A stretch of DNA of 20,000 nt, from the NCBI RefSeq assembly GCF_004010195.1, contig NC_057757.1, forward strand, positions 1,404,938-1,424,937. Reading direction: 5' to 3'. Both the position numbers and the translations under genes were made by a program. The stretch is from Chiloscyllium plagiosum. Taxonomy: Eukaryota. This document shows positions 882-20,000 of this stretch, one piece after another. The first letter of the stretch is position 1, and each line of letters starts with the position of its first letter. The notes beneath the pieces were generated by a model. That model was not told the origin of the DNA and made no database searches. It worked only from the letters and a program-made list of their open reading frames with translations.

Positions 882-1140
882 TCAATCATAGGACAAGCTA
901 GAGAATTCCTAGAAACATGGAACTCATCCGTGGACTCTATCAACAAGCACATAGATCCAATATACTGGCACTACAACCAGAACCAGCAACCAGAAGCAGC
1001 AGAAATGAAACCAAATAAATTCCAAAAGGCACAGTACAGCAGCACTTCACAGGAGGGTTGAGGATGTCACCTGGACATGGGACGAAACCTCTGCAAATTA
1101 ACTTCCCAGCTCAACGAATATACCCACAATGACGACAACT
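882..1140 (+). mobile_element. Decayed Penelope-like element 3' end (GIY-YIG C-terminus plus degenerate hammerhead motif)
   Basis: ORF 867-1061 contains IIGQAREFLETWNSSVDSINKHIDPIY, resembling Penelope endonuclease C-termini. It is followed by (t)TGAGGA-tgtcacc...gggac-GAAAC (1058-1088), a hammerhead-like core with C3 mutated. Confidence 0.65.
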
Positions 1141-1278
1141 AATGTGATATTTAAGAGGAATATCGACAACAGCACAGTATCCACATTAACCAGCAGTCCA
1201 GGGTTTCAATCACATCTGCAGAGACTTCAACATCAGGACATAAATGGGAGACATTGTGGCCTATTGGCTCAATTTTTA

Positions 1279-1589: not shown

Positions 1590-2481
1590 TTGACGGGGGA
1601 AGGAAAGAAATTGAAAATTTTGTTCTTGGAGGGCAGTTCTGGATCTGGCATCCGTGGGAAAACTTGTAGATTCCATTAGTACTGCAGGGAGAGTGGAATA
1701 GAAAATGTGCTTTCACACCTTTATGACTCTAGTTACCTTTAATGGGCTTGCCAAAGTGCCTAACCCAGAGTGACAGTTAGCATTTCGTTTCCAGAGAAAG
1801 TGCACCGGACATGAGCGTTTTAATGTGAAGTAGTTCGGATTGCTCCAGAACGTAACAGCATAAGTGACAGCAGGAGGATGAGGCCATTCAGCCCATCTAG
1901 CCTGGTCTATCAAAAATGAAATTGTGTCTTAACTTTCTTCAGCTCTACCTCCCTGGACTATTAATACACACTTGATGTTAATAATATATAGAAATATTTT
2001 GATTATAGACTTGAACATACTCAGTGACTGATCCTTCTACACTCAGATGCATGGTGTGCACAAAAGATGAATCATTTTCTGAGTAAAAACATTTCTCCTC
2101 GAATTTCTCTTGAATTTGTATAGAATGATCCATTGTCCTTGACCCCCCTCCAGTAGAATTATCTTTCCAGTGTTGATCGAATGGAAAGTATGTATGTCAG
2201 AATGTACAAATTGGGCTTTTCTGAAAGATGACATGTGGCACTGTAGTCCTCCCTCAGCCAATATGATGCAGCCTGGATTTATGCAAGCTCAGTCTGGATT
2301 TGGGGTTTCTGTCTGGAGGAGTGTAAGAGATGCACAATTCCCTTTCCATTTGTAACAAATGGAAATTGACATCAAACCATAGCACTGAACGGAATGTGAT
2401 TCTGATGTGGAAAGAGAATGAAATGGATGAAGGAAATGTATTCAGTATAAAATCTGACACCATGAAAATTATCTTAAACAG

Positions 2482-2595
2482 AAACAAAGACAACAACTGA
2501 GGACTCGACAATGGAGTCTACTTCAGTGGACACAACAGTGGTAACCATCAGTTCAAATCCTACCCTGACATCCACTGATGTTTCAACATCAGGAG
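2482..2595 (+). pseudogene. Mucin-like exon copy 1 (114 nt) with mutated splice donor; probable pseudo-exon
   Basis: Acceptor atcttaaacag is intact and the frame is open (ETKTTTEDSTMESTSVDTTVVTISSNPTLTSTDVSTSG), but the donor reads GGAG|gaaagt instead of GGAG|gtaagt. Confidence 0.65.
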
Positions 2596-3810
2596 GAAAG
2601 TGGCAGACATTGTGACCTATCATGAGAACATATCCAACTTTAATTATTCTGTACAACTGTGCACGATCACTTCACCTGTAATTTGTCTTGCCCTATTTTA
2701 ATAGAGCATAACTGATTTATTGGAAACAATTAAACTTGCAGAGGGCAGGGGTTTCTGAGGTATTGCCAATGTTTAACAGAGTGAGCAATGGGAGCTAATT
2801 TATGAATATTATGATTACTTAGAAAACAAGGAAGTAATAGCTAGAATGGATACTTTCTCTTCTTGATGATGTTTAGGGGGTGGAGGTTAGCCCAGGACAC
2901 TATCAATGGTTCAACTGCTTTTGGACAAATAACACAGTTAAATCCAATTCTCCCACAAGTGACTATGGAAGCATTGACAAAGTAATGTCACTTTGGAGAG
3001 TTTATATTTCAGCACTCCCTCTGCATTGCTGACCCCCAGCCTGGATCTGCTGGAAGTAACTCTGGGGTCGACTTAATGACCTTTCGACTGAGTATTTTGC
3101 AAGTGCCTGTCCTGAAAAGAGTGACAGTTACCATTTTATTCCCAGAGAAGGTGCACCGGACGTGTGCGTTTTAGTGTAAAGCAGTCAGGATTGCTCCAGA
3201 ACATCAGAGCATACGTGACAGGAGGAGGACAAGGCCATTCAACCTGTCTAGCCTGTTCTATCAAAAATAAAATTGTGTCTTTCCTTTCTTCAATGCTAGG
3301 TCCCTGGACTATTGCTGCAGCACTTGATGTTATTAATATATAGAAATATTTTGATCACAATCTTGAACACACTCAGTGACTGAGCCTTCTGCACTTAATT
3401 GCATTCATCATCTTCTGACTAAAACATTTCTCCTAGTCTTTGTCCTGAATTTGTCGAGAATGTTCCCTTCTCCTTGACCCCACTCCAGTGGAATTATCTT
3501 TCCAATGTTTACCTATTTGAAAGTATGAATGTTAGAATGTACAAATTGGACTTTTCTGAAAGATGAACTGTAGTCCTCCATCAGCCAACCTATGGTGCAG
3601 CCTGGATTTGTACAAACTCAGTCTGGGTCTTGGGTTTCAGCCTGGAGGAGTGTAAGAGTTGCACAATTCCCTTTCCATTTGTGACAGATGGAAATTGACA
3701 TCAACCCATAGCATTGAATGGAATATGATTCTGATGTGGAAACAGGATGAAATGAATGAAGAAAATGCATTCAATATAAAACCTGACCCCATGAAAATTA
3801 TCTTAAACAG

Positions 3811-3924
3811 ACACTAAGACAACAACTGGGGACTCGACAATGGAGTCTACATCAGTGGACACAACAGTGACAACCATCGGCTCAAATCCTACCCTGACAC
3901 CCACTGATCCGTCAACATCAGGAG
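3811..3924 (+). CDS. Mucin-like Ser/Thr-rich exon copy 2 (114 nt, phase 1-1)
   Basis: tcttaaacag|...GGAG|gtaaat; DTKTTTGDSTMESTSVDTTVTTIGSNPTLTPTDPSTSG (first residue assumes an upstream exon ending in G). Confidence 0.8.
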
Positions 3925-4098
3925 GTAAATGGCAGACATCATGACCTATAGTTAGAACATATCCAACTGTAATTATTCTCTGAGAGATTGTATACGATGA
4001 CGTCACCTGCAATTTGTCTTACCCTAATTTGAATTCAGAGCATTACTAATTTATTGTAAACAATAAAACTTCCAGTGTGTGGAGTTTCTGAGGTATCG

Positions 4099-4263
4099 AC
4101 GTTTCGGGCATAAGCCCTTCTTCAGGAATCAGGGTCCTGAAGAAGGGCTTATGCCCGAAACGTCGATTCTCCTGTTCCTTTGATGCTGCCTGACCTGCTG
4201 CACTTTTCTAGCAACACATTTTTAAGCTCTGATTTCCAGCATCTGCAGTCCTCACTTTCTCCT
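4099..4263 (+). mobile_element. Short Penelope-like insertion with inverted 5' end and hammerhead motif, 16-bp TSD
   Basis: Absent from other units. Flanked by agtttctgaggtatcg at 4083-4098 and 4264-4279. Perfect 33-bp inverted repeat 4095-4127/4135-4167. Confidence 0.85.
4131..4170 (+). ncRNA. Minimal type I hammerhead ribozyme motif (Penelope type)
   Basis: agggtc-CTGAAGA-a-gggc-ttat-gccc-GAAACGTC-gattct: conserved core, 4-bp stem II, palindromic ACGT stem III, GUC cleavage triplet, and a 6-bp stem I with two G-U pairs. Confidence 0.6.
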
Positions 4264-4808
4264 AGTTTCTGAGGTATCGTCGATGTTTAACAAAGCGAGC
4301 GATAGGAGCCAATTTATGAACATCAAGATTACTTCAAAAACAAAGAACAAAGAGATAGAATGGATACACTTTCTTCTTGATGACATTTAGGGAATGAAGA
4401 TTAGCCCAGGACAATATCAACAGTTCAACTGCTTTTGAACCAATAACACAGTTAGATCCAATCCTCCCACAAGAGACTATGGAAGCAATCACAAAGTAAT
4501 GTCACTTTGGAGAGCCAATATTGCAGCACTCCCTCTGCATTGCTGATCTCCAGCCTGGATCTGCTGACTGTAACTCTTGGGTTGAGTTAATGAGCTTCTG
4601 ACTGAGTTTTATGCGCTCACCTCACAGCACAGAGAGACTCCCAATGTAATAAGCTTGCCAATGAGCCTGTCCTGAACAGTGAGACAGATACCATTTATTT
4701 CCAGGGCAAGTGCACCGGACATGAGTGTTGCAATGTACATCAGTCAGGATTGCTACAGAACATAAGAGCATAAGTGACAGCAGGAGGATGAGGCTATTCA
4801 GCTTATCT

Positions 4809-5973
4809 ATGAAGTGGTTGTAGATGAAAAGTATTCTGCCTGGAGGTCAGTGGTGAGTGATGTCCTGGAGGGCTCTGCTCTTGGGCCTCTGCTCTTTGTA
4901 GTTTTTAGAAATGACTTTATGAGGAAGTTGAGGGGTGGGTTTATAAATTTGCTGATGACACAAAGGTTGGAGGCGCCGTTGATAGTATCGAAATCTGCTG
5001 CAGGCTGCAGCGCAACATAGACAGGATGCAGAGGTGGGCTGAGAAATGACAAATGGAGTTCAACCTGGATAAATGCAAAGTGATGCATTTTGGAAGGTCG
5101 AACTTGAATGCAGAATATACGATTAAAGACAGGATTCTTGGCAGTGTGGAGGAACAGCGGAATCTTGGTGTTCAAGTGCATAGATCCCTCAAACTTGCCA
5201 CCCAAGTGGATATGGTTGTCAAGAAAGCATGTGATGTTTTGGCTTTCAGTAACAGGGGGATTGAGTTTAAGAACTGCGAGGTTTTGCTGCAGCTCTGCAA
5301 AACCCTAGTGAGATCGCACTTGAAATATTGTGTCCAGTTCTAATCGCCCTATTATACGAAAGATGTGGAGACTTTGGAGAGGGCGCAAAGAAGGTTTACC
5401 AGGATGCTGCCTGGACTGGAGTTGAAGTCACCTAATACAACAACCCTGCTATATCTGCATTTTTCCAAAATCTGCCCGCCTATGATTAATTATCCTCCCT
5501 ACTGCTATTAGTGGATCTGTTGAAGAGAGGTTGACTAAGCTCAGACTTTTGTCTCTGAAGAGAAGGAGGAAGAAAGATGACCTGATCAAGGTGTACAAGG
5601 TAATGAGAGGCATGGACAATAGCACTAAACAGAGTGTGATTCTGGTGTGGAAACAGGTTGAAATGAATGAAGCCAGAGACTTTTCTCCAGGTCAGGATTC
5701 ACTGCCACGAGGGGTCATAGTTTTAAGGTGTTGGGAGGGAGGTCGAGAGGAGACGTCAGAGGTAGTTTCTTTATGCAGAGAGTTGTGAATGCATGGAATG
5801 TGTTGTCAGTGTTGGTGGTGGAAGTAGAGTCATTAGGGACATTGAAGCGATTGCTGAACATGAACATGGGTGCGTTGGTTAGGTTATTTCATTTTAAATT
5901 AGGATTAATCCTCGGCACAACATCATGGGCCAAAGGACCTGTTCTGTGCTGTACTTTTCTATGTTCTATGTTC
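4809..5973 (+). mobile_element. 5'-truncated, decayed CR1 LINE (reverse transcriptase C-terminal half and 3' UTR)
   Basis: SAWRSVVSDVLEGSALGPLLF (PQGSVLGP motif), MEFNLDKCKVMHFG...LVRSHLKYCVQF, RGSFFMQRVVNAWN; stops and frameshifts; ends in a (ttctatg)n tail. About 230 bp of the host unit is missing at the site and no TSD is seen. Confidence 0.92.
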
Positions 5974-6332
5974 CATATTCTCATGTTCCGTTGTCCTTAA
6001 CCCCACTCCAGTGGAATTATCTTTCCAATGTTGATCCAGTGGAAGTCAGAATATGCAAATTGGGCTTTTTTGAAAGATGACATGTGGCACTGCAGTCCTC
6101 CCTCAGCCAACCTACAGTGCAGCCTGGATTTGTGCAAGCTCAGTCTGGGTCTGGGGTTTCAGTCTGGAGGAGTGTAAGAGATGCAGAATTCCACTTCTGT
6201 TTGTAACAAATGGAAATTGACATCAAACCATAGCACTAAACAGAGTGTGATTCTGGTGTGGAAACAGGTTGAAATGAATGAAGAAAATATATTCAGTATA
6301 AAATCTGACACCATGTAAATTATCTTAAACAG

Positions 6333-6446
6333 AAACAAAGGCAACAACTGAGGACTTGACAATGGAGTCTACATCAGTAGACACTACAGTGGCAAACATC
6401 AGCTCAAATCCTACCCTGACATCTATAGATCCATCAACATCAGGAG
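6333..6446 (+). CDS. Mucin-like exon copy 3 (114 nt)
   Basis: tcttaaacag|...GGAG|gtaaat; ETKATTEDLTMESTSVDTTVANISSNPTLTSIDPSTSG. Confidence 0.8.
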
Positions 6447-7731
6447 GTAAATAGCAGATATTGTGACCTATAGTTAGAACATATCCAGCTGGAATCATTC
6501 TTTGAGATATAGGTACACGATCACTTCACGTGCAATTTACTTTGCCCTACTTTGATTCGAGAGTATAACTGATTTATTGTAAACAGTTAAACTCCTAGAG
6601 GGAGGAGTTTCTTTGATATGGCCAATGTTTAATAGAGTGAGCAATGGGAGCTAATTAATGAACATCAAGATTACATGGAAAAAAAGGAGGAAAAGAGCTA
6701 GAATGGATACTCTCTCTTCTTGATGATGTTTAGGGGATGAAGATTAGCCCAGAACAATATCAGTGGACTACCTGCTTTTGGACGAATAACACAGTTAGAT
6801 CCAATTGTCCCACAAGATACTATGGAAGCAATCACAAAGTAATGTCACTTTGGAGAGTTGATATTGCAGCACTCTCTTTCCATTGCTGATCTCCAGCCTG
6901 GATCTGCTGGCAGTAACTCTGGAGTTGAGTTAATGAGCTTCTGACTGAGTTTTATGCACTCACCCCACAGCACAGAGAGAGTCCCAATGTAATAAGCTGC
7001 CAATGTGTCTGTCCTGAACAGTGAGACAGATACCATTTTACTTCTAGAGAAAGTGCACGGGACATGTGCGTTTTAGTGTAAAGCAGTAAAGATTGCTACA
7101 CAACGTCAGAGCATAGTGACAGCAGGAGGATGAGGCCATTCAGCTCATCTAGCCTGGTCCATCAAACATAGAATTGTGTCTTACCGTTCTTCAACGCTGG
7201 TTCCCTGGACTATTGCTGCAGCACTTTATGTTATTAATATATAGAAATATTCTGATCACAGTCTTGAACACACTCAGTGACTGAGCCTTCTGCACTCAGT
7301 TGCATTGTGTGCACTAAAGATTAATATGACTAAAAACATTTCTCCTTGTCTTTGTGCTGAGTTTGTATAGAATTATCCCTTGTCCTAGACCACACTCCAG
7401 TGGAATTATCTTTCCAATGTTGATTAATTGGAAAGTATGTATGTCAGAATGTGCAAATTGGGCTTTTCAGAATGATGACATGTGGCACTGTGGTCCTCCT
7501 CAGCCAACCTAATATGCAGCCTGGATTTGTGCAAGCTCAGTCTGGGTCTGGGGTTTTAGTCTGGAGGAGTGTAGGAGATGCAGAATGCCCTATCAATTTG
7601 TAACAAATGGAAATTGACATCAAACCATAGCACTGAACAGAACTTGATTCTGATATGGAAACAGGATGAAATGAATGAAGAAAATGTATATTCAGTATAA
7701 AACCTGACCCCATGAAAATTATCTTAAACAG

Positions 7732-7845
7732 AAACAAAGACAACAACTGAGGAATTGACAATGGAGTCTACTTCAATGGACACATCAGTGGTAACCATCA
7801 GCTCAAATCCTACCCTGACATCCACTGATATGTCAACACCAGGAG
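7732..7845 (+). CDS. Mucin-like exon copy 4 (114 nt)
   Basis: tcttaaacag|...GGAG|gtagat; ETKTTTEELTMESTSMDTSVVTISSNPTLTSTDMSTPG. Confidence 0.75.
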
Positions 7846-8495
7846 GTAGATGGCAGACATTGTGACCTATAGTTAGAGCATATCCAACTGTAATTATTCT
7901 CTGAGAGATTGGTACACGACCACTTCACCTGCAATTTGTCTTGCCCTAATTTTAATAGAGCATAACTGATTTATTGGAAACAATTAAACTTCCAGTGGGA
8001 GGAGTTTCTGAAGTATAGCCAATTTTAATAGAGCGAGTGATGGGACCCAATTTATGAACATCAAGATAACTTAGAAAACAAGGAGGAAAGAGCTAGACTG
8101 GATACTCTCTCTTCTTGATGATGTTTCAGGGATAAAGATTAGCACAGGATAGTATCAACAGTTCAACTGCTTTTGGACCAATAACACAGTTAGATCCAAT
8201 CCTCACACAAGAGACCATGGAAGCAATCACAAAGTAATGTCATTTTTGGAGAGTCGATATTCTAGGACTCCCTTTCCATTGCTGACCTCCAGCCTAGATC
8301 TGCTGGCAGTAACTCTGGGGTTGATATGCTGCTGTTCTGACTGAGTATTATTTGCTCACCACAGAGTACAGAGAGATCCCCAATGTAATAAGCTGCCAAT
8401 ATACCTGTCCAGAACAGAGTGACAGTTATCATTTCATTTCTAAAGTAAGTACACTGAACATGTGTGTTTTGGCGTAAAGCAGTCAGGATTGCTAC

Positions 8496-8812
8496 AGAAC
8501 GTAGGAGCATAAGTGACAGCAGGAGGATGAGGCCATTCAGCAAGCAAAACTAAAATTGTGTCTTAAATTTCTTCATCGCTATTTCCCAGGAGTATTGATG
8601 CAGCACGTGATCTTATTAATATGTAGAAATATTTTGATCACATTCTTGAACGCACTGTGACTGAGCCTTCTGCACTCAACTGCATTGTGTGCACAAAAGA
8701 TTCATCACCTTCTGACTAAAAACATTTCTCCTTGTCTTTGTCCTGAATTTGTTGAGAATGCTTCCTTGTCCTTGACCCCACTCCAGTGGAATTATCTTTC
8801 CAATGTTGATCC
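8496..8812 (-). mobile_element. Ancient CR1 3'-end relic built into the repeat unit (representative copy)
   Basis: Minus-strand translation KFRTKTRRNVFSQKVMNL resembles the CR1 ORF2 end (FRTEMRRNFFTQRVVNLWN). agaacgtaggagcataag...gaggccattcagc resembles the reverse-complemented CR1 tail. Present in most units. Confidence 0.65.
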
Positions 8813-9116
8813 AGGGGAAAGTTTGAATGTTAGAATGTACAAATTGGGCTTTTCTGAAAGATGACATGTGGCACTGTGGTCCTCCCTTAGCCAACCTACT
8901 GTGTAGCCTAGATTTGTGCAAGCTCACTCTGGGTCTGGGTTTTCTGTCTGGAGGAGTGTAAAAGATGCATAATTCCCTTTCCATTTGTAACAAATGGAAA
9001 TTGACATCAAACCATAGAACTGAACAGAATGTGATTCTGATGTGGAAACAGGATGAAATGGATGAAAAAAATGTATTCAGTATAAAATCTGACACCATGA
9101 AAATTATCTTAAACAG

Positions 9117-9224
9117 AAACAAAGATAATAACTGAGACAATGGAGTCTACATCAGCAGACACAACAGTGACCACCATCGGCTCAAATCCTACCCTGACAT
9201 CCACTGATCTGTCAACATCAGGAA
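9117..9224 (+). CDS. Mucin-like exon copy 5 (108 nt, in-frame 6-nt deletion)
   Basis: tcttaaacag|...GGAA|gtaaat (weaker donor, A at -1); ETKIITETMESTSADTTVTTIGSNPTLTSTDLSTSG. Confidence 0.7.
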
Positions 9225-10497
9225 GTAAATGGCAGCCATTATGACCTATCGTTAGAAAAAGTTTTCTCTGCGAGATTGGTACACGATCACTTCACCTGCA
9301 ATTTGTCTCGCCCTGATTTTAATAGAGAGCAAAACTTCTTATATAAACAATTAAACTTCCAGAGGGAGGAGTTTCTGAGGTATCGCCAATGTTTAACAGA
9401 GCAAGCGATGGGAGCCAATTTATGAACATGATGATTACTCAGAAAACAAGGAGGGGAGAAATAGACTGGATACACTTTCTTATTGATGATGTTTAGGGGA
9501 TCAAAATCAACCCAGGACACTATCAATTCTCCAACTGCTTTTGGAGCAATAACACAGTTAGATCCAATCCTCCCACAAGAGACTTTGAAGCAATCACAAA
9601 ATAATGTCACTTTGGAGAGTCAATATTGCAGCACTCCCTCTGCATTGCTGACCTTCAGCCTGGATCCTGGCAGTAACTCTGAAGTCGATTTGATGAGCTT
9701 CTGACTGAGTATTATGTACTCACCGTGGAGCACAGAGAGAGTCCCAATGTGATCAGCTTGCCAAGAAGCCTGTCCTGAAAGAGTTACAGTTACCATTTCC
9801 TTTCCAGAAAAAGTGCACTGGATACGTGCGTTTTAGTGTAAAGCAGTCAGGATTGCGGCATGACCGTAAAAGCATAAGTAACAGCAGGAAGATGAGACCA
9901 TTTAGCCCATCTAGTCTTTTCCATCAGCATTTAAATTGTTTCTTACATTTTTCAATGCTTGTTTCCTGGACTCTTGCTGCAAAACATGATGTTATTAACC
10001 TATAGAAAGTTTTAATCATGCTCTTGAACACACTCAGTGACTGAGCCTTCTGCACTTAGTTGCATTGTGTGCACTAAAGACTCATCAATTTCTGACTAAA
10101 AATCATTTCTCCTCATCTTTGTCCTGAATTTGTCGAGAAAGTTCCATTCTCCTTGACCCCACCCCAGTGAAATTATCTTTCCAGTGTTGATCGAGTGGAA
10201 AGTATGAATGTTAGAATGTGGAAATTGGGCTTTTCTGAAAGATGACATGTGGCACTGTAGTCCTCCCTCAGCCATTTTACTGTGCAGCTTGGATTTGTGC
10301 AAGCTCCGTCTGGGTCTGGGGTTTCACTCTGAAGGAGTGTAAAAGATGCACAATTCCCTTTCCATTTGTAACAAATGGAAATTGACATTAAACCATAACA
10401 TAGAACGGAATGTGATTCTGATGTGGAAACAGGATGAAATGGATGAAGAAAATGTATTCAGTATAAAATCTGACATCATGAAAATTATCTTAAACAG

Positions 10498-10611
10498 AAA
10501 CAAAAACAACAACTGTGGACATGACAATGGAATCAACATCAGTGGACACAACAGTGACAAACATTGTCTCAAATCCTACCCTGACATCCACTGATCCGTC
10601 AACATCAGGAG
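10498..10611 (+). CDS. Mucin-like exon copy 6 (114 nt)
   Basis: tcttaaacag|...GGAG|gtaaat; ETKTTTVDMTMESTSVDTTVTNIVSNPTLTSTDPSTSG. Confidence 0.8.
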
Positions 10612-11810
10612 GTAAATGGCAGACATTGTGACCTTTAGTTAGAGCATATCCAACTATAACCCTTCTCTGAGAGATTGGTTAATGATCACTTCACCTGCAA
10701 TTTGCCTTGCCATAATTTTAATAGAGAGCATGACTGATTTATTGTATACAATTAAACTTCTACAGGGAGGAGTCTCTGAGTATAGTCAATTTTTAATAGA
10801 GTAAGCAATGGGAGCCAATTTATGAACATCAAGATTAGTTATAAAACAAGGAGGAAAGAGCTAGAATGGATACTCTCTCTTCTTGATGGTGTTTTAGAGA
10901 TAATGTTTAGCACAGGATATTATCAATGGTTCAACTGCTTTTGGACCAATAACACAGTTAGATCTAATCTTCCCACAAAAGACTATGGAAGCAATCACAA
11001 AATAATGTCACTTTGGAGTGTCGATATTGCAGCATTCCCTCTGCACAGCTGACCTCCAGCCTGGATCAGCTGGCAGTAACTCTGGCGCTGAGTTAATGAG
11101 CTTCTGACTGAGTTTTATGCGCTATCCTCACAGCACAGAGAGAGTCCTAATGTAATATGCTTGCCAATGAGCCTGTCCTGAACAGTGAGACAGATAGCAA
11201 TTTATTTCCAGAGGAAGTGCATCGGACATGTGCATTTTAGCATAAAGCAGTCAGGATTGCTACAAAACAGAACTGCATAAGTGACAGCAGGAGGATGAGG
11301 CTATTCAGCCAATCAATCATATTCTAGCAAAAATACAACTGTGTCTTAAATTCTTCATCGTTATTTCCCAGGAGTATTGATGCAGGACCTGACTGAGCCT
11401 TCTGCACTCAGTTGCATTGTGTGCACAAAAGATTCATCATCTTCTGATTAAAAACATTTCTCCTTGTCTTTATTCTGAATTTTTGATAATGTTCCCTTGT
11501 CCTTAACCCTTCTCCAGTGGAATTATCTTTCCAGTGTTGATCTATTTGAAAGTATGACATGCGGCACTGTAGTCCTCCCTCAGCCGAACTACCATGCATC
11601 TTGGATTTGTGCAAGCTCAGTCTGGGTCTGGGGTTTTCTGTCTGTAGGAATGTAAAAGATGCACAAGTCCCTTTCTATTTGTAACAAATGGAAATTGACA
11701 TCAAACCATAACATAGAACAGAATGTGATTCTGATGTGGAAACAGGATGAAATGGATGAAGAAAATGTATTCAGTATCAAACCCGACATCATGAAAATTA
11801 TCTTAAACAG

Positions 11811-11924
11811 ACACAAAGACAACAACTGAGGAATTGACAATGGAGTCAACTTCAGTGGACACAACAGTGACAACCATTGGCTCAAATCCTACCCTGACAT
11901 CCACTGACCCATCAACATCAGGAG
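11811..11924 (+). CDS. Mucin-like exon copy 7 (114 nt)
   Basis: tcttaaacag|...GGAG|gtaaat; DTKTTTEELTMESTSVDTTVTTIGSNPTLTSTDPSTSG. Confidence 0.8.
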
Positions 11925-12320
11925 GTAAATGGCAGTCATTGTGACCTGTCGTTAGAACATATCCAACTGTAATTATTGTCTGAGAGATTGGTCATGATCA
12001 CTTCATTTGCAATTTTTCTTGCCTGAATTTTAACAGAGCATAAGTAATTTATTGCAAACAATTAAATCTCCAACAGAACGAGTTTCAGAAGTATAGCCAA
12101 TGTTTAATACAATGAGCGATGGGAGCCACTGTATGAACATCAAGATTTTGTGGAAAACAAGGGGAAATAGCGAGAATAGATACTCTCTCTTCTTGATGAT
12201 ATTTCCGGGATGAAGATTAGCACAAAATACAATCAATGGTTTAACTGCTTTTGGGCCAATAACACAGTTAGGTGCAATCCTTCCACAAGAGACTATGGAT
12301 GCAATCACAAAGTAATGTCA

Positions 12321-12437
12321 TGATTTGTTGATGCAGGTGTTGGACTGGGGTGTACAAAGATAAAAATCACACAACACCAGGTTATAGTCTATATTGTCCA
12401 GGTTATAGGACTATAACCTGGTGTTGTGTGATTTTTA
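12321..12437 (-). mobile_element. Short Penelope-like insertion with inverted end, 14-bp TSD
   Basis: Flanked by acaaagtaatgtca at 12307-12320 and 12438-12451. Perfect 29-bp inverted repeat 12361-12389/12409-12437. The family assignment is from recollection of shark repeats. Confidence 0.75.
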
Positions 12438-13245
12438 ACAAAGTAATGTCACTTTGGAGAGTCGATATTGCAGCACTCCCTCTGCACTGGGCCCCTTCAG
12501 CCTGGATCTGCTGACAGTAACTCTGGGGTTGTGTTCATGAGCTTCTGACTGAGTTTTGTGCGCTCACCTCACAGCACAGGGAGAGTCCCAGTGTAATAAG
12601 CTTGCCAATGAGCCTTTCCTGAACATTGAGATAGATACCATTTTACTTCCAGACCAAGTATACTGGAGATGTGCGTTTTAGTGTAAAGCAGTCAGGATTG
12701 CTACATGACCGTAAGAGCATAAGTGACAGTAAGAGGATGAGGCCTTCAGCCCATTTAGCCTCTTCCAGCAGAATTAAAATTGTGCCTTACCTTTTTTCAA
12801 TGCTCGTTCCCTGGACTCTTGCTGCAGCAATTGATGCGATTAACATATAGAAATATTTTGATCATATTCTTGAACACACTCAGTGACTGAGCCTTCTGCA
12901 CTCAGTTGCATTGTGCGCACTAAAGACTCATCATTTTCAGACTAAAATACATTTCTCCTTGTTGTTGTCCTGAATTTATCGAGAACGTGCTGTTCTCCTC
13001 GACCTCACTCCAGTGGAATTATCTTTCCAGTGTTGATCCAGTGGAAAGTATGAAAGAATGTTAGACCCGGTCTAGGTCAGAGGAGTGTAGGAGATGCACA
13101 ACTTCCTTTCCATTTGTAACAAATGGAAATTGACATCAAACCGTAACATTGAACAGAATGTCATTCTGATGTGGAAACAGGATGAAATGATTGAAAACAG
13201 TGCATTCAGTATCAAATCTTACACCATGAAATTTATCTTAAACAG

Positions 13246-13344
13246 AAACAAAGACAACTGAGACAATGGAGTCTACATCAGTGGACACAACAGTGACAAC
13301 CATTGGCTCAAATCCTACCCTGACACCCACTGATCCGTCAGGAG
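13246..13344 (+). CDS. Mucin-like exon copy 8 (99 nt, in-frame deletions totalling 15 nt)
   Basis: tcttaaacag|...GGAG|gtaaat; ETKTTETMESTSVDTTVTTIGSNPTLTPTDPSG. Confidence 0.78.
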
Positions 13345-14078
13345 GTAAATGACAGACATTGTGACTTATCGTTAGAACATATCCAATTGTAATTTGTCTC
13401 TGAGAGACTGGTACACGACCACTTCACCTGCAATTTGCCTTGCACTAATTTTAATTCAGTGCATGACAAATTTATTGTAAACAATTCAATGTCCAGTGGG
13501 ACGAGTTTCTGAAGTATAGCCAATGTTTAACAAAGCAAGTGATGTGAGCCAATTTATGAACATCAAGATTACTTAGAAAACAAGGGAGAAATATGTGGAA
13601 TTGATACTGTCTCTTCTTGATGGTATTTTGGAGATGAAGATTAGCCAAGGATACAATCAATGGTTCAACAGCTTCTGAAGCAATAACACAGTTAGATCCA
13701 ATTCTCCAACAAGTGACTATGGAAGCAATCACAAAGTAATGTCACTTTGGAGTGTCGATATTGCAGCACTCCCTCTGCAGTGCTGACCTCCAGCCTGGAT
13801 CTGCTGGCAGTAACTCTGGGGTTGAGGTAATGAGCTTCTGACTGTGTTTTATGCACTCACCCCACAGCACAGAGATAGTCCCAATGTAATAAGCTGCCAA
13901 TGTGCCTGTCCTGAACAGTGAGACAGATACCATTTTACTTCCAGAGAAAGTGCAGCCTGGATTACTGCAAACTCAATCTGGGTTTGGGGTTTCTGTCTGA
14001 AAGAGTGTAAAAGATGCACAAGTCCCTTTCCATTTGTAACAGTATAAAATCTGACACCATGAAAATTATCTTGAACAG

Positions 14079-14192
14079 AAACAAAGACAACAACTGAGGA
14101 CTCGACAATGGAGTCTACTTCAGTGGACACAACAGTGGTAACCATCAGCTCAAAACCTACCCTGACATCCACTGATCTATCAACATCAGGAG
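14079..14192 (+). CDS. Mucin-like exon copy 9 (114 nt)
   Basis: tcttgaacag|...GGAG|gtaagt (consensus donor); ETKTTTEDSTMESTSVDTTVVTISSKPTLTSTDLSTSG. Confidence 0.82.
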
Positions 14193-15354
14193 GTAAGTGG
14201 CAGACATTGTGACCTATCATGAGAACATATCCAACTTTAATTATTCTGTCCAACTGTGCACGATCACTTCACATGCAATTTGTCTTCCCCTACTTTTAAA
14301 AGAGAGCATAACTGATTTACTGTTAAAAATTAAACTTCCAGATGTATGAATTTCCAAAGAAAAGCCAATGTTTAATAGAGAGAGCGATGGGAGCTAATTT
14401 ATGAACATCAAGATAACTTAGAAACCAAGGAGGCAATAGCTAGAATGGATACTCTCTGTGCTTGATGATGTTTAGGGGAATGAAGATCAGCCTAGAATAC
14501 TATCAATGCTCCACTGCTTTAAGAGCAATAACATGTTTAGATCGAATCCTCCCACAAGAGACTACGGAAGCAATCACAAAGTAATGTCACTTTGGAGAGT
14601 CAATATTGTAGCACTACCACTGCATTGCTGTCCTCCAACATGGATCTGCTGGAAGTAACTCTGGGGTTGATTTGATGAGTTTCTGCCTGAGATTTTTGCG
14701 CTCACCATGGAGCACAGAGAGAGTCCCAATATAATAAGCTGCTGAAGTGCCTGTCCTGAGCAGGGTGACAGTTACCATTTTATTCCCAGACAAAATGCAC
14801 CGGACACGTGTGTTTTAGTGTGAAGTAGTTCGGATTGCTCAAGAACGTAAGGGCATAAGTGACAGCAGGAGGTTGAGGCCATTCAGCTCATCCAGCCTGT
14901 TGTATCAAAAATGAAATTGTGCCTTCCCTTTTTTTCAAGGCTAGTTCCCTGGACTCTTGCTGCAACACTTGATGTTATTAACATATAGAAATATTTTGAT
15001 CAAATTCTTGAACACACTCAGTTACTGAGCCTTCTGCACTCAGTTGCATTGTGTGCACTGAAGACTTTTCGTTTTCATACCAAAAAAAATTTCTCCGCCT
15101 CTTTGCCGTGAATTTGTACAGAATGGTCCCTTGTCCTTCACTCCAGTGGAATTATCTTTCCAGTGTTGATCGAGTGGAAAGTATATCTGTCAGAATGTAC
15201 GAATTGGGCTTTTCTGAAAGATGATGTGGCAATGTTGTCCTCCCTTAGCCAACCTACCGTGCAGCCTGGATTTGTGGCAAGCTCAGTGTGGGTCTGGGGT
15301 TTCCGTCTGGAGGAGTGTAAGAGATGTTCAATTCCCTTTCCGTTTGTAACAAAC

Positions 15355-15690
15355 TTCAATATCGGGAGGTGAATGGCAGACATTGTGACCTATCGTTAGA
15401 ACATATCGAACGTATATCCAACTTTTAGCTAGAATGGATACTCTCTCTTATTGATGAAGTAGCATAGCACAGGATACAATCAATGGTTCAACTGCTTTTA
15501 GGACAATAACACAGTTAGATGCAATCCTCCCCGACATCCACTGATATGTCAACATCAGAAGGTAGATGGCAGACGTTGTGACCTATAGTTAGAACATATC
15601 CAACTGTAATTTTTCTCTGAGAGATTGGTTAATGATCACTTTATATGCAATTTGTCTTGCCCTACTTTTAATATTAGGAGGTAGGTGGCA
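15355..15690 (+). pseudogene. Three acceptor-less 3' exon remnants (orphan donors at 15369, 15562, 15681)
   Basis: tcaatatcgggag|gtgaat, gacatccactgatatgtcaacatcagaag|gtagat and ttaggag|gtaggt, none preceded by the ttaaacag acceptor. Confidence 0.7.
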
Positions 15691-16195
15691 GACATTGTGA
15701 CCTATCATGAGAACATATCCAACTTTAATTATTCTGTACAACTGTACACGATCACTTCACCTGCAATTTGTCTTGCCCTACTTTTAATAGAGAGCATAAC
15801 TGATTTAATGGAAACAATGAAACTTCCACAGGGAGGAGTTTCTAAGGTATCGCCAGTGTTAAACAGAGCAAGCGATGGGAGCCAATTTATGAACATCATG
15901 TTTTCTTGGAAAACAAGGAAGAATGAGAGAGAATAGATCCACTTTCTTCTTGATGATGTTTAGGGGATGAATATCAGCCCAGGACACCATCAACGGTTCA
16001 ATTGCTTTTGGGCCAATAATACAGTTAGATTCAATCCTCCCACAAGAGACCATGGATGGAATCACAAAGTAATATCACTTTGGAGAGTCGATATTGCAGC
16101 ACTCCATCTGCACTGGGCCCCTTCAGCCTGGACCTGCTGACAGTAACCCTGGGGTTGGGTTCATGAGCTTCTGACTGAGTTTTGTGCGCTCACCT

Positions 16196-16695
16196 NNNNN
16201 NNNNNNNNNNNNNNNNNNNNNNNNNNNNNNNNNNNNNNNNNNNNNNNNNNNNNNNNNNNNNNNNNNNNNNNNNNNNNNNNNNNNNNNNNNNNNNNNNNNN
16301 NNNNNNNNNNNNNNNNNNNNNNNNNNNNNNNNNNNNNNNNNNNNNNNNNNNNNNNNNNNNNNNNNNNNNNNNNNNNNNNNNNNNNNNNNNNNNNNNNNNN
16401 NNNNNNNNNNNNNNNNNNNNNNNNNNNNNNNNNNNNNNNNNNNNNNNNNNNNNNNNNNNNNNNNNNNNNNNNNNNNNNNNNNNNNNNNNNNNNNNNNNNN
16501 NNNNNNNNNNNNNNNNNNNNNNNNNNNNNNNNNNNNNNNNNNNNNNNNNNNNNNNNNNNNNNNNNNNNNNNNNNNNNNNNNNNNNNNNNNNNNNNNNNNN
16601 NNNNNNNNNNNNNNNNNNNNNNNNNNNNNNNNNNNNNNNNNNNNNNNNNNNNNNNNNNNNNNNNNNNNNNNNNNNNNNNNNNNNNNNNNNNNNNN
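16196..16695. other. Assembly gap (500 N)
   Basis: Exactly 500 Ns, probably a placeholder length. Confidence 0.99.
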
Positions 16696-17108
16696 TGCTG
16701 TGCTGTTCCAGCAATCAAGTTTCAACTCCAATTCTCCAACAGGTGACTATGGAAGCAATCACAAAGTAATGTCACTTTGGAGTGTCAATATTGCAGCACT
16801 CCCTCTGCAGTGCTGACCTCCAGCCTGGATCAGCTGGCAATAACTCTGGGGTTGAGTTAATGAGCTTCTGAATGAGTTTTATGCGCTCACCCCACAGCAC
16901 AGAGATCATCCCAATGTAATCATCTGCCAATGTGCCAGTCCTGAACAGTGAGACAGATACCATTTTACTTCCAGAGAAAGTGCAGCCTGGGTTAATGCAA
17001 ACTCAGTCTGGGTTTTGGGTTTCTGTCTGAAGGAGTGTAAAAGATGCACAAGTCCCTTTCCATTTGTTACAGTATAAAATCTGACACCATGAAAATTATC
17101 TTAAACAG

Positions 17109-17222
17109 AAACAAAGACAACAACTGAAGACTCGACAATGGAGTCTACTTCAGTGGACACAACAGTGGGAACCATCAGCTCAAAACCTACCCTGACATCC
17201 ACTGATCTATCAACATCAGGAG
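17109..17222 (+). CDS. Mucin-like exon copy 10 (114 nt)
   Basis: tcttaaacag|...GGAG|gtaagt; ETKTTTEDSTMESTSVDTTVGTISSKPTLTSTDLSTSG. Confidence 0.82.
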
Positions 17223-18504
17223 GTAAGTGGCAGACATTGTGACCTATCATGAGAACATATCCAACTTTAATTATTCTGTACAACTGTACACGATCACTTC
17301 ACCTGAAATTTGTCTTGCCCTACTTTTAATAGAGAGCATAACTTATTTACTGTAAAAAATTAAACTTCCAGAGATAATAATTTCTAAAGAAAAGCCAATG
17401 TTTAATAGAGCGAGCGATGGGAGCTAATTTATGAACATCAAGATAACTTTGAGACCAAGGAGGCAATAGCTAGAGTGGATACTCTCTGTGCTTGATGATG
17501 TTTGGGGGAATGAAGATCAGCCCAGAATACTATCAATGCTCCACTGCTTTAAGAGCAATAACACATTTACATCCAAACCTCCCACAAGAGACCAGGGAAG
17601 CAATCACAAAGTAATGTCACTTTGGAGAGTCAATATTGTAGCACTACCTCTGCATTGCTGTCCTCCAACCTGGATCTGCTGGAAGTAACTCTGGGGTTGA
17701 TTTGATGAGTTTCTGCCTGAGATTTTTGCGCTCACCATGGAGCTCAGAGAGAGTCCCAATATAATAAGCTGCTAAAGTGCCTGTCCTGAACAGGGTGACA
17801 GTTACCATTTTATTCCGAGACAAAGTGCACCGGACACGTGTGTTTTAGTGTGAAGTAGTTCGGATTGCTCCAGAACATAAGGGCATAAGTGACAGCAGGA
17901 GGATCAGGCCATTCAGCTCATCTAGCCTGTTGTATCAAAAATGAAATTGTGCCTTCCCTTTTTTTTAAGGCTAGTTCCCTGGACTCTTGCTGCAACACTT
18001 GATGTTATTAACATATAGAAATATTTTGATCAAATTCTTGAACACACTCAGTTACTGAGCCTTCTGCACTCAGTTGCATTGTGCCCACTGAGGACTCTTC
18101 GTTTTCATAGCAAAAAAACATTTCTCCGCCTCTTTGCCGTGAATTTGTACAGAATGGTCCCTTGTCCTTCACTCCAGTGGAATTATCTTTCCAGTGTTGA
18201 TCGAGTGGAAAGTATATCTGTCAGAATGTACGAATTGGGCTTTTCTGAAAGATGACGTGGCAATGTTGTCCTCCCTTAGCCAACCTACCGTGCAGCCTGG
18301 ATTTGGGCAAGCTCAGTCTGGGTCTGGGGTTTCCGTCTGGAGGAGTGTAAGAGATGTTCAATTCCCTTTCCGTTTGTAACAAATGGAAATTGACATCAAA
18401 CCATAGCATTGAACAGAATGTCATTCTGATGTGGAAACAGGATGAAATGAATGAAAAAATGTATTCAGTATAAAACCTGACACCATGAAATTTATCTTAA
18501 ACAG

Positions 18505-18609
18505 AAACAAAGACAACTGAGACAATGGTGTCTACATCAGTGGACACAACAGTGACAACTATCGGCTCAAATCCTACCCTGACATCCACGGATCCGTCAA
18601 TATCGGGAG
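18505..18609 (+). CDS. Mucin-like exon copy 11 (105 nt, in-frame deletions totalling 9 nt)
   Basis: tcttaaacag|...GGAG|gtgaat; ETKTTETMVSTSVDTTVTTIGSNPTLTSTDPSISG. Confidence 0.75.
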
Positions 18610-18769
18610 GTGAATGGCAGACATTGCGACCTTTCGTTAGAACATATCGAACGTATATCCAATTTTTAGCTAGAATTGATACTCTCTCTTATTGATGAAG
18701 TAGCATAGCACAGGATACAATCAATGGTTCAACTGCTTTTAGGACAATAACATAGTTAGATGCAATCCT

Positions 18770-18802
18770 CCCTGACATCTACTGATATGTCAACATCAGA
18801 AG
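18770..18802 (+). pseudogene. Acceptor-less 3' exon remnant
   Basis: ccctgacatctactgatatgtcaacatcagaag|gtagat, the counterpart of the remnant at 15530-15561. Confidence 0.65.
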
Positions 18803-19996
18803 GTAGATGGCAGACGTTGTGACGTATAGTTAGAACATATCCAACTGTAATTTTTCTCTGAGAGATTGGTTAACGATCACTTCACCTGCAATTTGCCTTG
18901 CCCTACTTTTAATAGTGAGCATAACTGATTTAATGTAAACAATTAAACTTCCAGAGGGAGGAGTTTCTGAGGTATCGCCAGTGTTAAACAGAGCAAGCGA
19001 TGGGAGCCAATTTATGAACATCATGTTTTCTTGGAAAACAAGGAAGAATGAGAGAGTATAGATACACTTTCTTCTTGATGATGTTTAGGGGATGAATATC
19101 AGCCCAGGACACTATCAACGGTTCAATTGCTTTTGGGCCAATAACACAGTTAGATTCAATCCTCCTATAAGAGACCATGGATGCAATCACACAGTATTAT
19201 CAGTTTGGAGAGTCGATATTGCAGAACTCCCTCTGCACTGGGCCCCTTCGGCCTGGACCTGCTGACAGTAACCCTGGGGTTGGGTTCATGAGCTTCTGAC
19301 TGAGTTTTGTGCGCTCACCTCACAGCACAGGGAGAGTCCCAGTGTAATAAGCTTGCCAATGAGCCTTTCCTGAACATTGAGACAGATACCATTTTACTTC
19401 TAGACCAAGTGTACTGGAGATGTGCGTTTTAGTGTAAAGCAGTCAGGATTGCTACATGACCGTAAGAGAATAAGTGACAGTAAGAGGATGAGGCCTTCAG
19501 CCCATTTAGTCTCTTCCAACAGAATTAAAATTGTGCCTTACCTTTTTTCAATGCTCATTCCCTGGACACTTGCTGCAGCAATTGATGCGATTAACATTTC
19601 GATATATTTTGATCATATTCTTGAACACACTCAGTGACTGAGCCTTCTGCACTCAGTTGCATTGTGCGCACTAAAGACTCATCATTTTCAGACTAAAATA
19701 CATTTCTCCTTGTTGTTGTCCTGAATTTATCGAGAACATGCTATTCTTCTTGACCTCACTCCAGTGGAATTATCTTTCCAGTGTTTATCCAGTGGAAAGT
19801 ATGAAAGAATGTTAGACCCGGTCTAGGTCAGAGGAGTGTAAGAGATGCACAACTTCCTTTCCTTTTCTAACAAATGGAAATTGACATCAAACCGTAGCAT
19901 TGAACAGAATGTCATTCCGATGTGGAAACAGGATGAAATGATTGAAAAAACTGCATTCAGTATCAAACCTTACACCATGAAACTTATCTTAAACAG

Positions 19997-20000
19997 AAAC
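19997..20000 (+). CDS. Start of mucin-like exon copy 12 (cut by window edge)
   Basis: aacttatcttaaacag|aaac matches the acceptor and exon start of the other copies. Confidence 0.55.

What the first reader, a model, noticed from the sequence alone, without database searches (positions are those of the whole stretch)
2482..20000. Hidden array of tandemly duplicated, frame-symmetric mucin exons inside an apparent satellite
Seen: each full ~1.4 kb unit holds one AG...GT-bounded segment encoding a ~38-aa module that is about half Ser/Thr. There are 11 complete copies and none has an in-frame stop. Lengths are 114 (x8), 108, 105 and 99 nt, so all indels are multiples of 3, while the flanking unit sequence has many arbitrary indels. 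Many differences are synonymous (ACT/ACA, TCT/TCA, GAG/GAA, ATC/ATT, GAT/GAC, CCG/CCA). Established: short phase 1-1 Ser/Thr-rich exons build the O-glycosylated stalks of surface proteins such as CD45 and CD44. Inference: this is a live gene whose mucin domain grows by duplicating exon+intron cassettes rather than by an intra-exon VNTR. The 10 GT-intact copies would add about 370 aa, and repeat masking or ORF calling would hide them.
Basis: partly seen in the sequence, partly recalled or inferred. Interest (0 to 1): 0.85.

Follow-up and report, generated by a model that had tools for sequence, protein, structure and literature searches.

The report
Shark mucin, one repeat per exon
The apparent satellite holds real, spliced 114-base exons of a bamboo-shark cell-surface mucin of the human MUC3/MUC12/MUC17 type; unlike the human genes it stores each repeat of its likely sugar-coated stalk in its own exon and likely varies stalk length by skipping exons, a design described before for chicken Muc13.

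Summary
Observation confirmed: 11 complete modules (114 nt x8, 108, 105, 99), all open in a phase 1-1 frame; 10 have GT donors, one has GA. The array runs about 17.5 kb past the window (23 GT-bounded modules found). It is followed in frame by EGF, SEA, EGF, transmembrane and tail exons, giving a predicted 1,196-aa MUC3/12/17-type mucin beside ACHE, as in humans. The host gene is not CD44 or CD45. Contigs of one probable RNA run join modules exactly at the predicted GT..AG sites (3 of 15 listed joints; none in the DNA-like run). The best joint, 6446 to 10498, has no mismatches and skips two modules. Exon indels are 3 of 3 in frame versus 6 of 47 in introns; dN/dS is about 0.56. One-repeat-per-exon mucins are known (chicken Muc13, schistosome SmPoMuc), and this scan noted a similar array in another shark gene. 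Not found in seven literature searches: this design in the MUC3 cluster, an ACHE-linked cluster in a shark, and skipping evidence. A neighbouring paralogue likely keeps the classical single exon. Allelic deletion is not excluded as the cause of the skip.

The parts
2482..2595 (+). Repeat module with AG acceptor but GA instead of GT donor; likely skipped or dead in this haplotype
   Evidence: the same module type on unplaced contigs has GA in L036 and GT in L037
3811..3924 (+). PTS repeat exon, 114 nt, phase 1-1
   Evidence: outside the stretch on which reads were laid
6333..6446 (+). PTS repeat exon, 114 nt; seen spliced directly to 10498
   Evidence: joint 6444/10496 (GT..AG), record 1, 0 mismatches; next-best copy differs at 12 places
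7732..7845 (+). PTS repeat exon, 114 nt; absent from the 6446-10498 spliced contig
9117..9224 (+). PTS repeat exon, 108 nt; absent from the 6446-10498 spliced contig
10498..10611 (+). PTS repeat exon, 114 nt; spliced on both sides
   Evidence: joints to 6446, 11811 and a 13246-type start
11811..11924 (+). PTS repeat exon, 114 nt
   Evidence: joint 10609/11809, short side 30 letters
13246..13344 (+). PTS repeat exon, 99 nt
   Evidence: joint 10609/13244; its first 26 nt are shared with two downstream copies
14079..14192 (+). PTS repeat exon, 114 nt
17109..17222 (+). PTS repeat exon, 114 nt; unit 95-98% identical to the units at 14079, 22497 and 27387 (the last two beyond the window)
18505..18609 (+). 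PTS repeat exon, 105 nt; unit 98.8% identical to the one at 28783 (beyond the window)
19997..20000 (+). Start of a further module, cut by an assembly gap. Beyond the window the gene continues with 13 more GT-bounded modules (L001-L002) and nine exons for EGF, SEA, EGF, membrane helix and tail (L004-L005)
1053..1239 (+). Decayed module at the 5' edge of the array (stop or frame change, no GT donor). The candidate signal-peptide exon lies upstream of the window (L011:4494-4572, unconfirmed)
15356..15701 (+). Three partial module ends without acceptor, left by internal deletions (another at 18764-18823)
1749..20000 (+). Tandem exon+intron cassettes (unit 0.8-1.4 kb, introns about 85% alike), with repeat-element insertions near 4090-4263, 4810-5986 and 12321-12437 and a 500-base gap

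Best explanation
The repeat is the spliced, one-repeat-per-exon Ser/Thr-rich stalk of a bamboo-shark gene whose downstream exons encode an EGF-SEA-EGF-transmembrane tail of the MUC3/12/17 type next to ACHE; the stalk is likely O-glycosylated on an epithelial surface, likely grew by unequal crossing-over of exon+intron cassettes, and is likely shortened in some transcripts by exon skipping. Shown: module anatomy, one stop-free frame from the candidate signal exon to the stop, exon-exon joints, synteny. Because every module is phase 1-1 and a multiple of 3, whole cassettes can be gained or lost in the DNA and skipped in the RNA without shifting the frame. Modules that lose a splice site drop out and decay. 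Inferred from the human family: SEA self-cleavage, glycosylation and glycocalyx barrier function.
For: Splicing: 3 GT..AG joints exactly at module ends, all in run X1 and none in X2 among the 15 listed joints. The 6446-10498 joint has 102+114 letters without mismatch, and other copies differ at 10 or more places. The joined forms occur 0 times in the 370 kb of genomic DNA held. Depth in X1: median 88.5 in 7 exon bins versus 4.1 in 22 intron bins (p=0.0014); in X2: 4.5 versus 17.5 (p=0.83; one repeat-element bin left out). Host gene: 32 exons joined in a script give 1,174 codons and 0 stops, plus a last exon of 22 codons. The C-terminal 311 aa are 64% identical to a RefSeq 'mucin-17-like' of Mustelus and 54% to that of Narcine. 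9 of 19 hit clusters carry a mucin name, all MUC3 or MUC17. An acetylcholinesterase gene lies about 66 kb upstream on the opposite strand. Selection: in-frame indels, third-position divergence 0.134 versus 0.079 and 0.087 at positions 1 and 2, introns 0.153; non-synonymous deficit p about 0.006. Cassette duplication: units 95-99% identical in three groups.
Against: X1 is only guessed to be RNA and also holds intronic contigs. It is one run of assembled contigs, without strand or tissue. The two raw-read RNA runs gave no test (X6 laid only on a repeat element, X7 laid nothing). Four joints were not shown. Two of the three joints have a short side of 28-30 letters, and module ends differ by as little as 1-3 letters, so their exact partners are uncertain. 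No read links the array to the signal exon or the EGF exon. The signal exon has no homologue found. Selection is moderate. Near-identical units beside gaps may be assembly duplicates, and further copies lie on three unplaced contigs, so the copy number is unresolved.
Confidence: 0.88

Rival explanations
1. The gene model is right, but splicing is constitutive: the missing modules in the 6446-10498 contig reflect a deletion allele or a different unit order in the sampled animal, so stalk length varies only between alleles.
For: The array is clearly unstable (partial units, near-identical blocks, extra copies on unplaced contigs). The RNA-like run is not known to come from the assembled animal, and no matched DNA was laid. 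The 10611-13246-type joint cannot be pinned to one copy.
Against: X1 also holds an exact 404-base contig (8405-8808, 0 mismatches) from the intron between the two skipped modules, and raised depth over module 7732. The skipped units are therefore present in that sample, although a heterozygous or pooled sample would explain this too.
Confidence: 0.35
2. The array is a non-coding satellite or a dead part of a mucin pseudogene whose open modules survive by recent homogenisation.
For: Broken copies of the same gene lie 170-200 kb downstream. Decayed and partial modules occur in the array. Lack of stops alone is not significant (p about 0.13).
Against: Exact GT..AG joints in X1, in-frame indels only, a non-synonymous deficit, and an intact C-terminal gene in matching phase. 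Automatic protein models of Scyliorhinus and Narcine show 38-residue periodicity.
Confidence: 0.04
3. The host is a Muc13 orthologue or a CD44/CD45-type protein, for which multi-exon stalks are already known.
For: Chicken and zebrafish Muc13 have a multi-exon PTS domain and a SEA domain (PMC1552070).
Against: 0 of 19 looked-up hit clusters are named MUC13. The nearest Atlas cluster of the Mustelus orthologue is 'mucin-12' (0.97). The gene sits beside ACHE, the marker of the MUC3 cluster (PMC9578598). All exons from array to stop are assigned and none is a Link, FN3 or phosphatase exon.
Confidence: 0.05

Closest known systems
Human MUC3A/MUC3B/MUC12/MUC17 cluster (7q22; PMC9578598, PMC13643018)
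   Same: Ser/Thr-rich stalk, two Cys-rich EGF-like domains flanking a SEA domain, one transmembrane helix, short tail; tandem paralogues directly beside ACHE.
   Different: The human stalk is one exon of 16-39 kb in MUC3A, MUC3B and MUC12; here it is at least 23 exons of 84-114 nt. The cleavage motif reads GSIVT rather than GS[V/I]VV, the first EGF-like exon has four cysteines, and the predicted tail has no class I PDZ motif.
Chicken Muc13 (Lang et al. 2006, PMC1552070); zebrafish Muc13 mentioned there as unpublished
   Same: SEA-type membrane mucin with one repeat per exon, EST support, and a proposal that splicing could vary stalk length.
   Different: A different gene (beside HEG), at least 12 repeats of 20 aa. 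That paper only raised the possibility of skipping; here a skipping joint is seen. It also found no MUC3/12/17 in chicken or fish.
Schistosoma mansoni SmPoMuc genes (PMC2576457)
   Same: A short exon with its flanking introns forms about 1-kb genomic tandem repeats, up to about 20 per gene, homogenised by concerted evolution.
   Different: Flatworm genes with a 27-nt exon and introns over 93% identical; none of the passages seen mentions a SEA, EGF or membrane part.
Automatic shark and ray gene models named mucin-17-like or mucin-3-like (e.g. XP_078056943.1, XP_069771473.1; chiPu_0019990)
   Same: The same gene or its orthologues; 54-64% identity over the C-terminal 311 aa.
   Different: They are partial. 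The Chiloscyllium punctatum model has four modules and lacks EGF1, SEA and the membrane helix; no full-length model was found.

Membership tests
MUC3-cluster (MUC3/12/17-type) membrane mucin | N-terminal Pro/Thr/Ser-rich repeat domain | tested here: met
   836 codons, 51% Ser+Thr, 6% Pro
MUC3-cluster (MUC3/12/17-type) membrane mucin | Juxtamembrane SEA domain | tested here: met
   First SEA exon alone hits PF01390 at E=1.4e-4, below cut-off; the 64%-identical orthologue passes cut-off at E=2.9e-8
MUC3-cluster (MUC3/12/17-type) membrane mucin | SEA cleavage motif G/S[V/I]VV | tested here: inconclusive
   GSIVT at the expected place; last residue differs from the motif given in PMC13643018; cleavage not testable
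MUC3-cluster (MUC3/12/17-type) membrane mucin | Two Cys-rich EGF-like domains flanking SEA | tested here: met
   Exons at extended coordinates 52624 and 64956-66602 (L004, L005); the first has four Cys (review gives six), as in shark relatives
MUC3-cluster (MUC3/12/17-type) membrane mucin | Single transmembrane helix and short tail | tested here: met
   Hydropathy 3.7 over 19 residues in the exon at 66602; tail exons to stop at 67732
MUC3-cluster (MUC3/12/17-type) membrane mucin | Cluster of paralogues adjacent to ACHE | tested here: met
   Acetylcholinesterase about 66 kb upstream; two paralogue tails and two broken copies within 205 kb downstream. A serpin (2 Mb) and a FIS1-family hit (5.6 Mb) lie on the same contig; the serpin's identity and TRIM56 were not tested
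MUC3-cluster (MUC3/12/17-type) membrane mucin | Signal peptide | tested here: inconclusive
   Best of 11 upstream candidates by donor score, phase 1, 7.9 kb before the first module; no homologue or RNA link
Mammalian MUC17/MUC3/MUC12 in the strict sense | Stalk encoded by one large exon | tested here: not met
   At least 23 separate exons with spliced joints; hence filed as a variant of the cluster lineage, not as MUC17 itself
Mammalian MUC17/MUC3/MUC12 in the strict sense | C-terminal class I PDZ-binding motif | tested here: not met
   The predicted last exon ends Leu-Met-Asn; that exon is a prediction without RNA support
Mammalian MUC17/MUC3/MUC12 in the strict sense | O-glycosylation and apical intestinal expression | not testable with these tools
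   Tissue of run X1 is not on record
MUC13 | Adjacent to HEG1 | not tested
   No search for HEG1 was run; the upstream neighbour found is ACHE
MUC13 | Closest relatives are MUC13 proteins | tested here: not met
   0 of 19 clusters named MUC13, 9 named MUC3 or MUC17; no tree was built
CD44 or CD45 stalk | Link domain, or FN3 plus phosphatase domains (recalled) | tested here: not met
   All exons from array to stop match SEA-mucin relatives over 311 aa

The most novel reading that the evidence does not exclude
Sharks and rays have kept, within an ACHE-linked MUC3 cluster older than amphibians, two opposite designs side by side. One paralogue has a classical giant VNTR exon. This gene's 38-residue exon module may be conserved across elasmobranchs, and its stalk length is tuned within one animal by regulated exon skipping, giving a splice-adjustable glycocalyx.
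Probability: 0.35. Interest if true: 0.7.

Novelty: new variant of a known kind. Interest (0 to 1): 0.5.

Why it matters
It gives sequence evidence for an idea raised in 2006 for chicken Muc13: that a mucin stalk can change length by splicing, not only by allelic repeat number. It shows the exon-per-repeat design in a family whose human stalks are described as single exons. It places an ACHE-linked MUC3-type cluster in a cartilaginous fish, whereas PMC9578598 suggests the cluster first emerged in amphibians. Practically, it shows how about 70% of a coding sequence can look like satellite and be missed by gene models. The principle itself is known, so the surprise for a mucin specialist is moderate.

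Tried and rejected
Tandem Repeats Finder (period up to 500) missed the array. The run search listed no holder on record as RNA, which is no evidence either way. Single-cell RNA runs X6 and X7 gave no coverage of the modules: no test. A search for longer homologues of the Mustelus orthologue and of the candidate signal exon found none, which is weak evidence. The signal-exon DNA has no second copy in the 370 kb held. A genome-wide SEA family search did not list this locus, and an ARS2/SRRT-family search pointed to another contig, so that part of human 7q22 synteny (recalled) is not met. One 'stop' in the per-base tally is a counting artefact of a codon with two changes; no module has a stop. 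P0016, a low-complexity hit, was ignored as unrelated. No stalk was found for the two downstream paralogues in the scaffold (gaps there). The 2007 PNAS paper on mucin evolution was not held, so what it says about Xenopus exon structure is unknown to me. CD44, CD45 and MUC13 were considered and rejected. No structure prediction was run, as the stalk is low-complexity and the domains were identified by sequence.
Full report
Observation. The window holds a diverged tandem unit from about 1749 to the end. One search found 11 complete modules of 114 (x8), 108, 105 and 99 nt, each after an AG and stop-free only in the frame that starts at base 3 (phase 1-1). Ten end in GT; the one at 2482 ends in GA. 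The ten sum to 370 codons. All 3 distinct exon indels among 20 modules are multiples of 3, against 6 of 47 in 11 full-length introns (p=0.004, or 0.024 counting two events). Divergence is 0.079, 0.087 and 0.134 at codon positions 1-3 and 0.153 in introns. Using the intron mutation spectrum as null, synonymous alleles are as expected (20 versus 18), non-synonymous ones are depleted (27 versus 43, p about 0.006), and dN/dS is about 0.56. Absence of stops alone is weak (p about 0.13).

Extent. The window is G000:C48:1404938-1424937. Coordinates below 1 or above 20000 continue the window's numbering. With 200 kb of flanks the array runs to about 37500: 23 GT-bounded modules (10 in the window, 13 at 22497-37508) including four diverged ones at the 3' end, plus one or two cut by a gap. 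Eight more copies lie on three unplaced contigs. Three groups of units are 95-99% identical, pointing to recent block duplication, though some may be assembly duplicates beside gaps. The true copy number is unresolved. A decayed module at 1053-1239 and acceptor-less module ends at 15356-15701 and 18764 show what happens when splice sites are lost.

Host gene. Fifteen kb after the last module begin exons for an EGF-like domain (52624-52725), a SEA domain (three exons, 55264-59442, GSIVT), a linker, a second Cys-rich domain (64956-65118), a transmembrane helix (66602-66778) and a tail. Their splice phases match throughout, and the first is phase 1, as the array requires. Joined in a script with a candidate signal-peptide exon 7.9 kb upstream of the first module (-5506 to -5428; best donor score among 11 candidates), 32 exons give 1,174 codons without a stop; a predicted last exon adds 22 (67665-67732), for 1,196 aa with an 836-residue stalk that is 51% Ser+Thr. 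The EGF2 exon is 100% identical to a Chiloscyllium punctatum protein model, so the organism is a bamboo shark. That model contains four modules and lacks most of the rest. The C-terminal 311 aa are 64% and 54% identical to RefSeq mucin-17-like proteins of Mustelus and Narcine. Of 19 hit clusters looked up, 9 carry a mucin name, all MUC3 or MUC17, and none MUC13; the Atlas neighbour of the Mustelus protein is 'mucin-12'. An acetylcholinesterase gene lies about 66 kb upstream on the other strand, and further paralogues lie downstream. This is the ACHE-MUC3-cluster arrangement described for humans in PMC9578598. An SRRT-family hit is on another contig. The signal exon is unconfirmed.

RNA. Four runs were laid on window 6000-15350, covering 7 of the 11 modules. 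X6 and X7 gave no test. X1 (contigs, RNA only by guess) shows three joints with GT..AG ends exactly at module boundaries: 6446-10498, 10611-11811 and 10611-13246-type. X2 (DNA-like) shows none among the 15 listed joints; 4 joints were not displayed. The first joint has 114 and 102 letters without mismatch, while other copies differ at 10 or more places, so it is unambiguous and omits modules 7732 and 9117. The other two have a short side of 28-30 letters and cannot be pinned to one copy. X1 depth is concentrated on exon bins (median 88.5 versus 4.1, p=0.0014) and X2's is not (4.5 versus 17.5), with one repeat-element bin left out and multi-mapping as a caveat. The joined forms do not occur in the 370 kb of DNA held. 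X1 also carries an exact contig from the intron between the two omitted modules, so they are present in that sample. Skipping is the likelier reading (about 0.6), but a heterozygous or pooled sample with a deletion allele is not excluded. No read ties the array to the flanking exons.

Mechanism. Shown: symmetric in-frame exons, spliced joints, homologous introns, an intact downstream gene and synteny. Inferred: growth and shrinkage by unequal crossing-over of cassettes; exon skipping as a second, within-individual route to length variation; and, from the human family (PMC13643018), O-glycosylation, SEA self-cleavage and a barrier role at an epithelial surface.

Relatives. The Scyliorhinus model has a period of 38/76 residues (0.59/0.95 self-match) and the Narcine model a weak best period of 38 (0.38 versus about 0.3 for the next periods). 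This suggests an old 114-nt module, but I could not see their exon boundaries. The paralogue models of Rhincodon and C. punctatum have a 13-residue period instead. A pattern from that repeat led to an unplaced contig with a gap-bounded open frame of 1,631 codons of similar short repeats. It is likely the single-exon stalk of a neighbouring paralogue, linked by sequence likeness only.

Known work. PMC1552070 (read: parts 1-3 of 4, the main text) describes chicken Muc13 with one 20-aa repeat per exon, mentions a multi-exon stalk for zebrafish, proposes length control by splicing, and found no MUC3/12/17 in chicken or fish. PMC2576457 (passages) describes exon+intron tandem repeats in schistosome mucins. 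PMC9578598 (passages) and PMC13643018 (passages and the EGF section) describe single-exon stalks in the human cluster; the former suggests the cluster emerged in amphibians. PMC13345508 (passages) states that all canonical mucins have a large VNTR exon. PMC4948705 (passages) had nothing on this gene. Seven searches listed no paper on this shark gene or on a multi-exon stalk in the MUC3 cluster. The library lacks most subscription papers, the 2007 PNAS paper was not held, and no supplements were read, so Xenopus or fish precedents may exist.

Verdict. Real, and correctly read by the first stage apart from the host family. New variant of a known kind; interest 0.5.

Noticed in passing
L040:4669-9561 (- strand; unplaced contig C96908): Uninterrupted, gap-bounded frame of 1,631 codons of roughly 13-residue Ser/Thr/Asp-rich repeats, resembling the stalks of the Rhincodon and C. 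punctatum paralogue models; likely the classical single-exon stalk of a neighbouring mucin.
   Followed up: partly
extended window coordinates 92876-142084 (-) and 150324-186187 (+); L008-L027: Two closely similar MUC17-like paralogue tails facing away from each other with only about 8 kb and two gaps between them and no stalk; possibly an assembly artefact or an inverted duplication.
   Followed up: partly
extended window coordinates 236220-269574; L032-L035: Two broken or partial copies of this gene's EGF/SEA/EGF exons, with frame changes and a stop.
   Followed up: partly
window 2482-2599; L036; L037: The first module type has a GA donor in the window and on one unplaced contig but GT on another: a polymorphic or copy-specific loss of a splice site.
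   Followed up: partly
window acceptors of all core modules, e.g. 3751-3810: The acceptors are poor in pyrimidines (about 7-8 of 17 bases) in an A-rich context, which could favour skipping.
   Followed up: no
window 4090-4263, 4810-5986, 12321-12437: Insertions into single units: a short repeat element, a LINE-like fragment (type judged by eye, not searched) and a very high-copy palindromic element that drew most reads.
   Followed up: no
L018:6984-8546 (-): Large coding exon of acetylcholinesterase; best solved-structure matches are acetylcholinesterases.
   Followed up: yes
L005:7408-7414: Two tandem AG acceptors three bases apart before the first tail exon, both in frame.
   Followed up: no
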